From IMG/VR virus record IMGVR_UViG_2671180747_000001: a DNA stretch of 18,738 nt. The stretch is one strand, 5' to 3'. Shown piece by piece: positions 15,834-18,738 of this stretch. The first letter of the stretch is position 1; each line of letters begins with the position of its first letter. The notes beneath the pieces were generated by a model. The model ran no database searches, was not told the origin of the DNA, and saw only the letters and a program-made list of their open reading frames with translations. The translations under genes and the position numbers were made by a program. Origin of the DNA: a virus. Lineage: Duplodnaviria; Heunggongvirae; Uroviricota; Caudoviricetes.

Positions 15834-17745
15834 TCACTCCTCCGGACAGCTTCGCTGCCAGTTCTTTAAGGGTTGGCCGGGTCGTCTCTTCTTCCCGGGA
15901 TTTTGCCAGTACAGCCAGATCAAGTTGCCAGCGTTGCACGGACACACGTAATGCCGCGTAGGCATACACCAGGCAGTCCAGCGCTTCGTTACGCCGCTTT
16001 TTGTTATCCCACAGCAGACGCATCTTTCCTTTTTCCCACTTCTCCACAAGCTCTTCCGCCACCAGTTGCTGCGCCTCTGTCTGCGAAAAAATCTCCGGAT
16101 CATCAGGAAAACGGATGGCATACGACGTGGCTTCATCCGCAGGCGTGGGATCGGCTTTCATACGGGCATAGAGAATTTCTTTTGCGGTGTCCGTCCCCAC
16201 TTCGCACAGATACACGCCCCGCTAATTGCGGGTTTTTGGCATGGTGATCACCGGCTTGCCATAAACAGATGCACCTTTTACCGGCAGCACCCGGAAAACA
16301 CCGTGTTTTTTTGACCTCTGATAGACAATTTCGCCATCGATCCCCCCGGTGTCCCAGCAGACACGGGAAATGGTCATTTCGGTTCCGTCTGCATGGCGGT
16401 ATTTTTTGTTGATCGCCACATCCACACGTAACAGCGTCTCTTCCTCATCGGGACGCCCCATAATGATGATTTTATCCACCAGAAAGGCTTCCTCTCCCGG
16501 AGCCCATCCCCAGACATACATCTCAAAACGGTTTCGCTGCGAGTCAATGCCCGCCGTCAGATAAACCACCCGGGAAGGCACCGCAGCCGTGTAACGCACA
16601 ACCTTATCCATCAGCACCTGGTGATCGAGTTTTTCGCCCACGGCCTCTTCCCAGGTCTCGCCCAGCGTGGTGTTCACAAAGGTTTTCAGGCCGTTGGGAT
16701 CTTTCAGTGCATCCAGCCAGTCATAGACAATCTGTACCCAGGTGGTGAACGGACTGTACGCCGTCCAGATATGGAATGTGATGGAGCGCGGCGGCGGAAT
16801 TTCATTATCCGCGGCGCTGAAAAACGTCAGACCGTCGCGGGTCCACATCCCCGTGTTTTCACAGATCCACCGCCCGTTGCTCTGGTCCAGTTCAGACTGA
16901 TGGATCACGCAGCCATGATGTTCACAGAGGTAGAAAACACTTTCGGGACTGTCCTTCTCCCATTTAAGGCCAAAAGGCGTGGACTCATCGCCAAATTTCA
17001 GATACTGCTCCTCCCCGCAGTGCGGGCAGGGCACATAAAAACGCATGAAATGTGCCGACTCGTTGGCCGCTTTTTCGATCTGGCAGGAGCCTTTTATTTT
17101 AGGCGTCGAGCCGCGAATGGATTTTGGCCATACCGAGCCCTCAATACGCTTATCCCCCAGCAGGGTTGGCGAGCCCTCTTTTTCGACATCCGGCTCGAAC
17201 GAGGAAAGTTCGTCATAGCAGACCACGTCCACGGATTTTTCACGGTAGTTTTTGGCGGCAGCGCCGCCCAGGCACCAGAAGCCCACACCCGATGAAAAGC
17301 GTTTCAGCGTGATGGTATTATCACGATGTTTACGTCCCAGCCAGGGAGAAAGTTTTTTCAGGCAGGGAACATCGCGAATCGTCGCCTCCACGTGAGACTT
17401 CATAAAATCTTCAGCGGCAGAATCCGTGGGCTGAAAAAGCAGACTGTTTCGGGATTTATGCTCAATAAAATACCCGGCGACTCCCAGCAACATCTTTGTA
17501 TAGCCAACACGGGCAGATTTAATCAGATTAACAGTCCGGATCTGATCATTCCCCATGCTGTTCATGATGGCGATCTGGAACGGCAGCGTTTTCCATTCTC
17601 CCTCACCATATGAAGATTCTTTAGGCAGATAATAATTTTGATCAGCCCATTCAACTGGCGTCACCGGCAATGCCCTTATCAGGGGCTGTAATGCTGTTGT
17701 GACAGCACTCATCATATTATTCAGTTGTTGCTCTGATATATTCAT
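15817..17745 (-). pseudogene. A: Terminase large subunit (lambda A-like) interrupted by an in-frame amber TAG at 16222-16224; otherwise intact and in frame along its full length
   Basis: Start ATG at 17745 (MNISEQQLNNMMSAVTTAL...; lambda starts MNISNSQ...). Reading the minus strand: ...GKPVITMPKTRN-TAG-RGVYLCEVGTDTAKE..., where lambda as I recall it has ...RNKNGVYLTEIGTDTAKE.... The downstream 132 codons (15817-16215) stay in the same frame and match the lambda gpA C-terminus. Span is 643 codons including both stops (lambda gpA is 641 aa). Confidence 0.85.
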
Positions 17746-18226
17746 CGAGTAAATCCGGTAATTTATCCCCCGCCCGCGCACACTGATTTGCCCCCTTCGC
17801 AATAAGGGTTTTCAGATGGTCAAGATGGCGCGGTGTTAAATCAGGAAACTGTCGCTGCATGGATAAAGGGATGGAATCAAGCGTACTGGATAACGCCATT
17901 GCCAGCTTGCTGAGGGCAAAAATACAGAACCCGGTGTCAATAAGTTTTCCTTTTGACACCTCATTTTTTAACTGCTGTGTAACAGCCTGTTCTGCTGTCA
18001 GTTCCCATCTGGCAATAAGCAATTTCTCCTCATAGTCGTCTTCGCTATCGCCATCAGGCACATCGTTTTTACTTCTTCTCAGATACGATATGTAAAAATC
18101 GCGCCAGGCATCCAGATCCAGTTGCCCTCGCTTATTCGATATCGGGGCACCCGGCAATTTCTGCAATCTGCGAAGCTGGCGATCGGTCAGACTTAAATGC
18201 CTGGCAACTTCAGTCTGCGTAGCCAC
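17717..18226 (-). CDS. nu1: Terminase small subunit (lambda Nu1-like C-terminal half; divergent N-terminal HTH DNA-binding domain)
   Basis: 169-aa ORF with a GTG start at 18224-18226 after GAGGTGAGGA. The C-terminal half (...TGFCIFALSKLAMALSSTLDSIPLSMQRQFPDLTPRHLDHLK...LPDLLDEYI) resembles lambda Nu1. The N-terminus (MATQTEVARHLSLTDRQLRRLQK...) is unlike lambda but HTH-like. Overlaps the A start by 29 nt. Confidence 0.8.
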   Translation of the reverse strand: MATQTEVARHLSLTDRQLRRLQKLPGAPISNKRGQLDLDAWRDFYISYLRRSKNDVPDGDSEDDYEEKLLIARWELTAEQAVTQQLKNEVSKGKLIDTGFCIFALSKLAMALSSTLDSIPLSMQRQFPDLTPRHLDHLKTLIAKGANQCARAGDKLPDLLDEYIRATTE

Positions 18227-18273
18227 TCCTCACCTCGCAAAAACTCTCACCTCACAATCACAACAAAACCGGT

Positions 18274-18372
18274 CATGTCCGGTTTTAGTATCTATTTTTT
18301 GCGCATGTCCGGTTCATGGAAAGCATGTTTTTATATTTTTCATATGGTTAACTTGCAGAGAAACCGGACATG
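18274..18372. promoter_or_regulatory. cosB-like terminase small-subunit binding region: three copies of an 11-mer (CATGTCCGGTT at 18274-18284 and 18304-18314; inverted AACCGGACATG at 18362-18372) with an AT-rich spacer
   Basis: Repeats seen directly. They occupy the interval between cosN and the Nu1 start where lambda has its R3/R2/R1 elements. The first copy is part of a palindrome, aaaaccgg-tcatgt-ccggtttt (18265-18286). Confidence 0.5.
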
Positions 18373-18409
18373 GATCCCGGAAAATTTTCATAAATAGCGA
18401 AAACCCGCG

Positions 18410-18421
18410 AGGTCGCCGCCC
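18410..18421 (-). other. cosN cohesive-end site: 12-nt GGGCGGCGACCT on the minus strand, with the lambda-identical left end extending to about 18376
   Basis: Reverse complement of plus-strand 18376-18421 reads GGGCGGCGACCTCGCGGGTTTTCGCTATTTATGAAAATTTTCCGG, which matches the first ~46 nt of the mature lambda genome as I remember it; the sequence then diverges. Confidence 0.8.
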
Positions 18422-18451
18422 CGTAACGGGTCCATATGCCGGAAAGGACCC
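18422..18451. other. cosQ-side region just outside cosN, containing the inverted repeat gggtcc (18428-18433) / ggaccc (18446-18451)
   Basis: Location directly beyond the cohesive end on the right-end side of the phage genome. Inverted repeat seen directly; function inferred from position only. Confidence 0.3.
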
Positions 18452-18738
18452 GAGAAAATGATAATGGTTATCAGTTGCAACAAAATCCAGTTTCTTCCAC
18501 CATCGCACCTGACGAGCGACTATGAGGGGACAACGCCGCGCTCCGTTAACGCGGTAAACCCCGGTGTGCATCGTTTTTGATTATCCCCGCACACTCGCGC
18601 AGAGGAGTCTCCCTGTCGGGCTGCGGTCTCTGTTAATGCAGGAATACGGCGACGATACGGCGCATGGCTATGTCAGGCTGAAATGCCTTTATCAAATCCG
18701 GGTAACGCAATCTGCTCCAGCCTGTCCAGCCTTGCCAG

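What the first reader, a model, noticed from the sequence alone, without database searches (positions are those of the whole stretch)
17717..18421. Specificity swap at cos: lambda-identical cosN next to non-lambda cosB repeats and a Nu1 with a different N-terminal DNA-binding domain
The first ~46 nt at the cohesive end match the lambda left end as I remember it, then the sequence diverges exactly where lambda cosB R3 begins. In its place are three copies of AACCGGACATG (one inverted) separated by an AT-rich, possibly IHF-bent, spacer. The Nu1 homologue keeps the lambda-like C-terminal half, which in lambda contacts gpA, but has an unrelated N-terminal HTH-like segment. Matching changes in binding sites and binding domain imply a packaging-specificity module different from lambda, comparable in principle to the lambda versus phage 21 difference, grafted onto lambda-like cosN and gpA.
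Basis: partly seen in the sequence, partly recalled or inferred. Interest (0 to 1): 0.5.

Follow-up and report, generated by a model that had tools for sequence, protein, structure and literature searches.

The report
Lambda-type cos with different terminase-binding repeats
This is the DNA-packaging start site of a lambda-like E. coli prophage, in which the cutting site is identical to lambda's but the terminase-binding repeats and the matching DNA-binding domain of the small terminase belong to a different, widespread class that I could not find described; the mechanism itself is ordinary.

Summary

Across 36 variants of this domain, from enterobacteria to Pseudomonas, Aeromonas and Azospirillum, a TCCG(G/C)TT site lies at the R3 position. 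Arg20 of the recognition helix always pairs with TGTCCGG; other residues pair with TTCCGG. The class differs from the lambda, 21, N15/Monarch and Gifsy-1 types.

It occurs in 21% of complete E. coli genomes and in the PhiR12 phage records. I found no description in the papers I could read.

Verdict: a real new member of a known kind, of moderate interest. No binding or packaging was tested. This copy's large terminase gene carries a private amber codon.

The parts
18445..18451 (-). cosQ heptamer GGGTCCT, at cos bp -24 to -30
   Evidence: Read directly. The heptamer is present in all related loci shown.
18410..18421 (-). 12-nt cohesive-end sequence GGGCGGCGACCT (core of cosN); cos bp 1 = window 18421
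   Evidence: Identical to the lambda left end.
18377..18421 (-). Block of 45 bp identical to lambda bp 1-45. The cosN/cosB module boundary lies at bp 45/46.
   Evidence: The lambda, 21-type and window-type sequences all diverge from each other at bp 46.
18362..18372 (-). R3-equivalent TerS site CATGTCCGGTT, cos bp 50-60
   Evidence: Invariant in 59 of 59 distinct window-type cos sequences. The TCCGG core lies 83 bp from cosQ, and 76-92 bp from cosQ in 29 of 30 related loci.
18338..18350 (-). I1-like candidate IHF site TAACCATATGAAA (bp 72-84), inside the 70% A+T spacer 18315-18361
   Evidence: Two mismatches to YAANNNNTTGATW, the same as lambda at bp 74-86. Relatives L135, L143 and L144 have a perfect consensus at the aligned position.
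18304..18314 (+). R2-equivalent site, inverted relative to R3, cos bp 108-118
   Evidence: The R3-R2 spacing is fixed at 54 bp in all seven complex-type relatives, and the variable base of R2 changes together with that of R3.
18274..18284 (+). R1-equivalent site, inverted relative to R3, cos bp 138-148
   Evidence: Absent from some relatives (L137, L139) and more variable within the population.
18267..18277 (-). Fourth copy CATGACCGGTT (1 mismatch), in the R3 orientation. It overlaps R1 to form a 22-bp near-palindrome.
   Evidence: The same palindrome scores as a terminator-like hairpin.
17717..18226 (-). terS (Nu1 homologue), 169 aa, GTG start
   Evidence: Pfam Phage_Nu1 67.9 bits over residues 49-150. 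PHROG 57, annotated terminase small subunit.
18062..18226 (-). TerS N-terminal DNA-binding domain, residues 1-55 ('MATQ type'). The predicted recognition helix is residues 15-22 (18161-18184), with Arg20.
17735..18010 (-). TerS C-terminal half, residues 73-164, lambda-like; presumed oligomerisation and TerL-binding part
   Evidence: 46% identity to lambda Nu1 residues 86-177. The TerL-binding role is taken from lambda literature (PMC9026076).
15817..17745 (-). terL (gpA homologue), overlapping terS by 29 nt and interrupted by an in-frame TAG at 16222-16224
   Evidence: Pfam GpA_ATPase and GpA_nuclease. 68% identity to lambda A over 507 aa. The codon is TAG here and CAG in 17 relatives.

Best explanation
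The interval is the packaging initiation region (cosQ-cosN-cosB plus terS) of a lambda-like cos prophage of E. coli. The proposed mechanism follows lambda.

- R3 at bp 50-60 positions TerL to nick cosN.
- An IHF-assisted bend in the AT-rich spacer brings the inverted R2 next to R3, so that a dimer of DNA-binding domains can bind both.
- R1 and its overlapping copy are accessory sites.
- The lambda-like C-terminal half of TerS holds the gpA-type TerL.

The R sites and the recognition helix both differ from those of lambda, 21, N15/Monarch and Gifsy-1. This should therefore be a separate packaging specificity on a shared, lambda-identical cosN. Arg20 of the recognition helix probably reads the G of TGTCC.

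Shown here: the sequence anatomy, conservation of site position, covariation between protein and site, the modelled fold, and domain shuffling. Inferred: DNA binding, IHF use, nicking, and lack of cross-packaging with lambda. In this copy terL carries an amber codon, so the prophage probably cannot package itself, though its cos could still be used by a helper of the same type.
For: - The layout matches lambda in position: cosQ at -30..-24, R3 at 50-60 (lambda 50-65), an I1-like site, inverted R2, then R1 (lambda layout from PMC9026076 and PMC4669245).
- The repeats are far above chance.
- Among 122 sequences sharing the lambda 45-mer (120 IMG/VR contigs plus lambda and this window), each cosB type pairs with its own TerS N-terminal domain: about 84 lambda type, 27 window type, 7 of 21 type, 1 other.
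- In 29 of 30 related loci with a cosQ, TCCG(G/C)TT lies 76-92 bp from cosQ. An inverted copy lies either 54 bp downstream of R3 (enterobacterial loci) or at +172 inside terS (Pseudomonas- and Aeromonas-type loci), which parallels Monarch versus N15.
- Arg20 goes with TGTCCGG in 6 of 6 variants. These include a Pseudomonas-type protein (L281) whose relatives have Asn20 and TTCCGG. The 30 non-Arg variants lack TGTCCGG; nearly all have TTCCG(G/C), and one (L128, Lys20) has a GCCGG core.
- R3 and R2 change together within each locus.
- R3 is invariant in 59 of 59 population variants, while bp 92-107 of the spacer is hypervariable.
- The domain models confidently as a MerR-like winged HTH. Its closest solved structures include lambda TerS and RppC.
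- The PhiR12 phage records, whose listed hosts are E. coli K-12 and C, carry the module at 98% identity.
Against: - No binding, nicking or packaging data exist for this class, so specificity is inferred from sequence alone.
- The R core resembles the lambda core (TTTCCG-TTC against TGTCCGGTTTC) and the 21 core (CATGTCGG), so partial cross-recognition cannot be excluded. N15 terminase packages lambda DNA despite different sites (PMC4669245).
- The IHF match in the window is weak (2 mismatches).
- R1 here is inverted relative to R3, whereas lambda R1 has the R3 orientation. The higher-order complex may therefore differ.
- The residue 20 to base link is a correlation over about two or three independent lineages. 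In lambda and 21, published genetics assign bp 56 to residue 24, not residue 21.
- The R1 palindrome also resembles a terminator hairpin.
Confidence: 0.8

Rival explanations
1. This is simply the known phage 21 packaging specificity, or another already characterised one (N15/Monarch or Gifsy-1), recalled imperfectly by the first reader.
For: The repeat core CATGTC-GG is close to the 21-type R sequence CATGTCGGnCC. Like 21, the sequence diverges from lambda exactly at bp 46.
Against: - 21-type loci have R3 at bp 53-64 and a TerS beginning [23 protein letters not shown], which is close to lambda Nu1. The window's TerS N-terminus does not align with it by BLAST or HMM.
- Gifsy-1 has R = CAGATCC(G/T)TTC and a lambda-like domain.
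- N15 and Monarch-like loci have GGTTGTTGTT sites and a different domain.
Confidence: 0.04
2. The repeats do not bind terminase. They are instead a transcription terminator or attenuator hairpin, or sites for another regulator upstream of the late morphogenesis genes. TerS would then recognise something else.
For: The R1 palindrome (18264-18287) scores as a terminator-like hairpin on both strands. A weaker hairpin includes R3.
Against: - Only R1 is palindromic, and it is missing in some relatives. R3 and R2 are 54 bp apart and cannot form a compact hairpin.
- The site keeps a fixed distance from cosQ and cosN across genera, even where the terS start moves by 120 bp.
- The site sequence covaries with a TerS recognition-helix residue.
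- In the simple-type relatives the inverted copy lies inside the terS coding sequence, which does not fit a terminator.
Confidence: 0.05
3. The module is a real TerS/cosB pair but is functionally interchangeable with lambda. The R cores are similar enough that lambda and this terminase package each other's DNA, so no separate specificity exists.
For: The R3 sequences of lambda and the window align at 11 of 15 positions with one gap (my own alignment of the sequences). [quoted passage not shown]
Against: - Lambda and 21 differ by a similar amount and discriminate more than 1000-fold (PMC4669245).
- The TGTCC core sits 3 bp closer to cosN than the TTTCC core of lambda, and changing lambda's cosN-to-R3 spacing by 3 bp is severely defective (PMC9026076).
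- The recognition helix shares only 2 of 9 residues with that of lambda.
- The discrete, non-intergrading cosB types among contigs with identical cosN suggest selection for distinct specificities.
Confidence: 0.11

Closest known systems
Phage lambda cos (cosQ-cosN-cosB with R3-I1-R2-R1) and gpNu1
   Same: - The first 45 bp are identical, and the cosQ heptamer is the same.
- R3 lies at the same place (bp 50-60 against 50-65).
- An AT-rich spacer holds an I1-like site, and R2 is inverted.
- terS starts at bp 196 (lambda 191) and overlaps the start of a gpA-type terL.
- The C-terminal TerS half is 46% identical.
   Different: - The R sequence is CATGTCCGGTT rather than CGTTTCCnTTCT, and its core sits 3 bp closer to cosN.
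- R1 is inverted rather than direct, and carries an overlapping fourth copy.
- The wing is shorter by about 4 residues.
Phage 21 cosB and gp1, the classic alternative specificity on a lambda-identical cosN
   Same: The principle is the same: identical cosQ and cosN, divergence from bp 46, a tripartite cosB, and a swapped TerS N-terminal domain on a lambda-like C-terminal half. The R core is similar (CATGTCGG against CATGTCCGG), and Arg occupies the equivalent recognition-helix position (21 R21, window R20).
   Different: The 21 domain is a close relative of lambda Nu1, differing at 4 of 9 recognition-helix residues. The window's domain belongs to a separate sequence family. In 21, R3 is at bp 53-64 and R1 is direct.
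N15 (simple cosB: R3 plus remote rR2 inside gene 1) and Monarch (complex cosB with the same R type)
   Same: The 'MATQ' family shows the same two architectures. Pseudomonas-, Aeromonas- and Azospirillum-type members have R3 just upstream of terS plus an inverted copy about 195 bp downstream inside terS. The N15 rR2 site is about 200 bp from its R3. Enterobacterial members, including this window, have the complex R3-I1-R2(-R1) form.
   Different: The R sequence differs (N15 GAGGTTGTTGTT) and so does the domain sequence (N15 MAVLLNKSDMASSLGISVQAFDKWG). The N15 cohesive end differs from lambda at 2 positions, whereas the window's is identical.
Rpp proteins of Gram-negative PICIs (RppC, PDB 6HN7/6HLK)
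   Different: Rpp is a separate island-encoded protein that heterodimerises with the helper's TerS and appears to lack a TerL-binding tail (PMC9026076). Here the domain is part of the TerS polypeptide. No sequence similarity to Rpp was detected.

Membership tests
Lambda-like cos site (12-nt 5' cohesive ends; cosQ-cosN-cosB) | cosN with the lambda-like 12-nt cohesive-end sequence and flanking bases | tested here: met
   45 of 45 identical to lambda bp 1-45.
Lambda-like cos site (12-nt 5' cohesive ends; cosQ-cosN-cosB) | cosQ heptamer upstream of cosN | tested here: met
   GGGTCCT at bp -30..-24 (window 18445-18451). Conserved in relatives.
Lambda-like cos site (12-nt 5' cohesive ends; cosQ-cosN-cosB) | Complex cosB: R3 near bp 50-65, inverted R2, and a third R copy | tested here: met
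   R3 at bp 50-60, inverted R2 at 108-118, R1 at 138-148. R1 is inverted relative to R3, unlike lambda, and a direct copy with one mismatch overlaps it.
Lambda-like cos site (12-nt 5' cohesive ends; cosQ-cosN-cosB) | IHF site I1 between R3 and R2 | tested here: inconclusive
   The window has a 2-mismatch match at bp 72-84 in a 70% A+T spacer, as lambda does at bp 74-86. Three relatives have a perfect consensus at the aligned position. IHF binding was not measured.
Lambda-like cos site (12-nt 5' cohesive ends; cosQ-cosN-cosB) | Terminase actually nicks here to give the virion DNA ends | not testable with these tools
   The PhiR12 records place cos in the middle of the sequence, so their ends were not mapped by the depositors.
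gpNu1-type small terminase (Pfam PF07471 Phage_Nu1) | Match to the family model above its curated cut-off | tested here: met
   67.9 bits against a cut-off of 30, but only residues 49-150 match (profile positions 62-163).
gpNu1-type small terminase (Pfam PF07471 Phage_Nu1) | N-terminal winged-HTH DNA-binding domain of the Nu1 (MerR-like) fold | tested here: met
gpNu1-type small terminase (Pfam PF07471 Phage_Nu1) | Encoded immediately upstream of, and overlapping, a gpA-type large terminase gene | tested here: met
   terS ends at 17717 and terL starts at 17745. The terL product matches GpA_ATPase and GpA_nuclease and is 68% identical to lambda A.
Lambda packaging specificity | R sites CGTTTCCnTTCT and recognition helix SIRTIQNWQ | tested here: not met
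   The R site is CATGTCCGGTT and the helix is TDRQLRRLQ.
Phage 21 packaging specificity | R sites CATGTCGGnCC and recognition helix DPRTIERWQ | tested here: not met
   21-type loci from IMG/VR were compared directly.
N15/Monarch packaging specificity | R sites GGTTGTTGTT and the N15-type domain | tested here: not met
   N15 and the Monarch-like locus L145 have different sites and a different domain.
Gifsy-1 packaging specificity | Cohesive end differing from lambda at bp 8, 9 and 11; R sites CAGATCCnTTC | tested here: not met
   Gifsy-1 cos and TerS were read directly.

The most novel reading that the evidence does not exclude
The 'MATQ-type' TerS domain with its (T/G)TCCGGTT sites is a further, uncharacterised packaging-specificity family of lambda-like cos phages, spread from Enterobacteriaceae to Pseudomonas, Aeromonas and alphaproteobacteria. 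It would contain at least two sub-specificities, set largely by one contact: helix residue 20 Arg reading G, against Asn/Asp/Ser/Thr reading T. The equivalent position in the lambda/21 family follows the same pattern (lambda N21 with TTTCC; 21 R21 with TGTC), which would make this a shared, portable recognition code. It would also give a natural orthogonal cos/terminase pair on a lambda-identical cosN.
Probability: 0.55. Interest if true: 0.55.

Novelty: new member of a known kind. Interest (0 to 1): 0.4.

Why it matters
Packaging specificity decides which DNA a terminase encapsidates when several lambda-like prophages and phage-inducible islands share one cell. Only the lambda, 21 and N15 specificities have been tested genetically, and Gifsy-1 and Monarch have been described from sequence.

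This class is present in about one in five complete E. coli genomes, yet it appears unstudied.

- Its natural variants give a ready-made covariation series (Arg20 with G, other residues with T) for testing how a small terminase reads its site.
- The co-existence of 'complex' and 'simple plus intragenic' cosB forms within one domain family parallels N15 and Monarch, so those two architectures seem to interconvert repeatedly.
- It could supply a cos/terminase pair orthogonal to lambda for packaging or transduction tools.
- The Pfam Phage_Nu1 model misses this DNA-binding domain.

The mechanism itself is the known lambda one, so the gain is incremental rather than conceptual.

Tried and rejected
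- A word-indexed homologue search with the 70-aa N-terminus returned only truncated E. coli fragments and gave no diversity.
- A profile built only from MATQ-type proteins found no solved structure by sequence. An earlier hit to 1J9I came from a lambda-like sequence included in that alignment, so I discounted it.
- The genome-contig scan returned only 6 loci. The first viral-contig scan returned 80 near-identical E. coli loci. Re-ordering the query alignment gave the needed diversity.
- Full-text searches for the repeat sequence found only unrelated papers (p53 sites, primers).
- I found no paper on the PhiR12 phages.
- Sippy et al. 2015 and Feiss et al. 2015 (Virology) are not held. The phage 21 R sites and recognition helix were therefore identified from IMG/VR loci. 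They fit statements in PMC4669245 (G at bp 56) and my recollection of the 21 consensus.
- NCBIfam has no model that matches this TerS.
- Identity with the 21, Gifsy-1 and N15/Monarch types was considered and rejected by direct comparison.
- A strict search for WATCAANNNNTTR with up to 1 mismatch found only a site between R2 and R1, not in the R3-R2 spacer.
Full report
**What the window is.** The window is the morphogenesis end of a lambda-like prophage read in reverse. The minus strand encodes terS (17717-18226), then a gpA-type terL (from 17745), then W-, B-, C-, E- and tail-gene-sized ORFs. Pfam assigns Phage_Nu1 to terS, and GpA_ATPase plus GpA_nuclease to terL. The nearest records are E. 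coli chromosomes (up to 99.9% identity) and five phage records, PhiR12_1 to PhiR12_5 (98%), whose listed hosts are E. coli K-12 and C.

**Check of the observation.** The minus strand from 18421 reads GGGCGGCGACCT... and is identical to lambda for 45 bases. It differs from bp 46 onward.

- CATGTCCGGTT is found at 18362-18372 (minus strand, cos bp 50-60).
- It is also found at 18304-18314 and 18274-18284 (plus strand, so inverted; bp 108-118 and 138-148).
- A fourth copy, CATGACCGGTT, lies at 18267-18277 (minus strand) and overlaps the third.
- At up to one mismatch this makes 4 matches, against 0.51 expected in the whole window; no shuffle of 200 reached 4.
- The R3-R2 spacer is 70% A+T, against 44% for the window.
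- TerS aligns to lambda Nu1 only from residue 73 (46% identity over 92 aa).

The description is therefore accurate, apart from 45 rather than about 46 bases and the extra degenerate copy.

**The known types, compared directly.** I scanned IMG/VR for the lambda 45-mer. With lambda and this window, that gave 122 sequences, and the bases after bp 45 fall into discrete classes.

| Class | Sequences | R site | TerS N-terminus |
|---|---|---|---|
| Lambda type | about 84 | CGTTTCC | MEVNKKQLADIFGASIRTIQNWQ |
| Window type | 27 | CATGTCCGGTT | MATQTEVARHLSLTDRQLRRLQ |
| 21 type | 7 | CATGTCGGnCC as R3, inverted R2, direct R1 | [23 protein letters not shown] |
| Other | 1 | CATGTCAGTTC | [23 protein letters not shown] (L035) |

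The third class fits what PMC4669245 says of phage 21: cosQ and cosN identical to lambda, and a G:C pair at bp 56. Two other known types also differ from the window:

- Gifsy-1 has CAGATCCnTTC sites and a lambda-like domain.
- N15 has GAGGTTGTTGTT sites and its own domain. A Monarch-like E. coli locus (L145) has three GGTTGTTGTT sites in a complex cosB.

The window type is none of these. All three main classes part company at bp 45/46, so that point is a module boundary.

**Is the N-terminal domain really unrelated?** By sequence, yes.

- BLASTP finds nothing.
- Pfam does not cover it.
- A profile built only from proteins of this type finds no solved structure.
- An exhaustive HMMER search of 1.84 billion representatives finds only 42 clusters. 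Apart from two very long multi-repeat proteins, the domain always sits at the N-terminus of a short protein, at most about 210 aa, which is TerS-sized or a fragment.

**Do the repeats belong to this domain?** I collected loci encoding relatives of the domain:

- Klebsiella, Salmonella, Citrobacter, Enterobacter and other E. coli prophages;
- Aeromonas phiARM81ld, E. coli vB_EcoM-705R4 and Pseudomonas LPPA33;
- alpha- and gammaproteobacterial genomes;
- IMG/VR contigs.

Together these gave 36 distinct domain variants. In 29 of 30 loci that have a cosQ heptamer, TCCG(G/C)TT lies 76-92 bp downstream of cosQ. The window's distance is 83 bp.

An inverted copy is also present, in one of two arrangements.

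- In enterobacterial 'complex' loci it lies 54 bp beyond R3 with no indels, across a spacer that carries YAANNNNTTGATW. That consensus is perfect in three loci, has 1 mismatch in two, and has 2 mismatches in Enterobacter L141 and in the window.
- In 'simple' loci R3 lies about 22 bp before the start codon. The inverted copy is at +172 inside terS, where it encodes part of the linker. This is the N15 (R3 plus rR2) against Monarch dichotomy described in PMC4669245.

The variable base of the site tracks the protein.

- All six variants with Arg at position 20 have TGTCCGG in every copy. These are the window, Salmonella P0039, Citrobacter, Enterobacter, a second E. coli variant, and a Pseudomonas-type protein, L281. 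Apart from a few substitutions, the C-terminal half of L281 matches that of its Asn20 relative L258.
- None of the 30 variants with Asn, Asp, Ser, Thr or Lys has TGTCCGG. Nearly all have (T/C/G)TTCCG(G/C); one (L128, Lys20) has a GCCGG core.
- Within a locus, R3 and R2 carry the same variant.
- Within 59 distinct window-type cos sequences, R3 is invariant while bp 92-107 is hypervariable.

The aligned position in the lambda-like family follows the same pattern: lambda N21 goes with TTTCC, 21 and L035 R21 go with TGTC, and Gifsy-1 A21 goes with GATCC. These are correlations over a few independent lineages. They make TerS binding to these repeats the only economical reading.

**Modularity.** The window's C-terminal TerS half is also found joined to an N15-like domain (P0071, P0075, P0083 and others). 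It is joined to lambda/21-like domains in P0099 and L035. Each of the two fetched loci carries the matching R sites: L145 for P0071 and L146 for P0099. So the DNA-binding domain and cosB travel together and are exchanged against TerL-binding halves.

The rest of this phage is not lambda. gpA is 68% identical, with the lowest similarity in the first 35 or so residues.

**Prevalence and prior knowledge.**

- The 714-bp module covers at least 80% of its length in 1141 of 5426 complete E. coli genomes. The lambda equivalent does so in 3910.
- Only the five PhiR12 records among 50,697 phage records have it.
- The Feiss-laboratory papers I could read list lambda, 434, phi80, 21, N15, Monarch and Gifsy-1 (PMC4669245, PMC9026076). 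None mentions this type.
- Full-text searches for the motif found nothing relevant.
- Two key subscription papers were not available, so prior description cannot be excluded.

**Rivals.** Identity with a known specificity is rejected by direct comparison. A terminator or regulator role is suggested only by the R1 palindrome; it does not explain the fixed distance to cosN or the covariation. Functional interchangeability with lambda remains possible. The R cores are similar, and N15 terminase packages lambda DNA. However, lambda and 21 discriminate strongly with comparable differences, and the core here sits 3 bp closer to cosN.

**Verdict.** This is a real cos/TerS recognition module that works like lambda's but belongs to a separate specificity class, which I could not find described. 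It is a new member of a known kind and of moderate interest. The specificity and the Arg20-G contact are predictions that need the packaging and binding tests listed under next steps.

Noticed in passing
window 16222-16224 (minus strand, terL codon 508): An in-frame TAG interrupts the gpA-type large terminase gene (...MPKTRN*RGVYLCEVG...). The same codon is CAG (Gln) in 17 related loci, and the gene is intact in the closest genome (STEC2018-607). It is therefore a private C-to-T amber mutation. It would remove the last ~135 residues, which by homology with lambda include the portal-binding end. The prophage is probably packaging-defective unless the mutation is suppressed.
   Followed up: yes
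window 18229-18257: Two direct copies of CTCACCTC(G/A)CAA, 17 bp apart, lie between R1 and the terS GTG start. On the coding strand they read TTG(C/T)GAGGTGAG, which resembles a Shine-Dalgarno sequence. The second copy abuts the start codon. Their function is unknown, and they are conserved within the window-type population.
   Followed up: no
L123 bp 249-261; L124 1680-1694; L125 338-350; L258 and others at +172 of terS: In the 'simple cosB' relatives the inverted TerS site lies inside terS and doubles as codons for the linker (for example AAA CCG GAA, Lys-Pro-Glu). The same DNA is thus both a binding site and coding sequence. It sits at nearly the same coordinate as the N15 rR2 site (bp 249-260).
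   Followed up: partly
L145 (E. coli CP028741), L146 (JAKHDV010000001), L035 (IMG/VR): Other mosaic combinations exist. A Monarch-like locus has an N15-type domain, three GGTTGTTGTT sites and a window-like TerS C-terminal half. Another locus has a lambda-like domain with Gifsy-1-like CAGATCCGTTC sites on a lambda-identical cohesive end. A single IMG/VR contig (L035) has CATGTCAGTTC sites and the helix DIRTIDRWQ, which may be yet another specificity.
   Followed up: partly
window cos bp 50-65 compared with lambda, 21 and MATQ-type relatives: The R-site cores of the different families look like variations on one theme: lambda GTTTCCG-TTC, Salmonella P0040 ATTTCCGGTTC, window ATGTCCGGTTT, 21 ATGTCGGTAC. 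This hints that the sites, like the domains, share ancestry. The window's core lies 3 bp closer to cosN than those of lambda and 21.
   Followed up: partly
window 18486-18738: The sequence beyond cosQ, at the right end of the prophage, matches the 3' part of a Rha-family regulator gene. That gene is annotated in Stx-phage records and is marked frameshifted in the closest E. coli genome.
   Followed up: no
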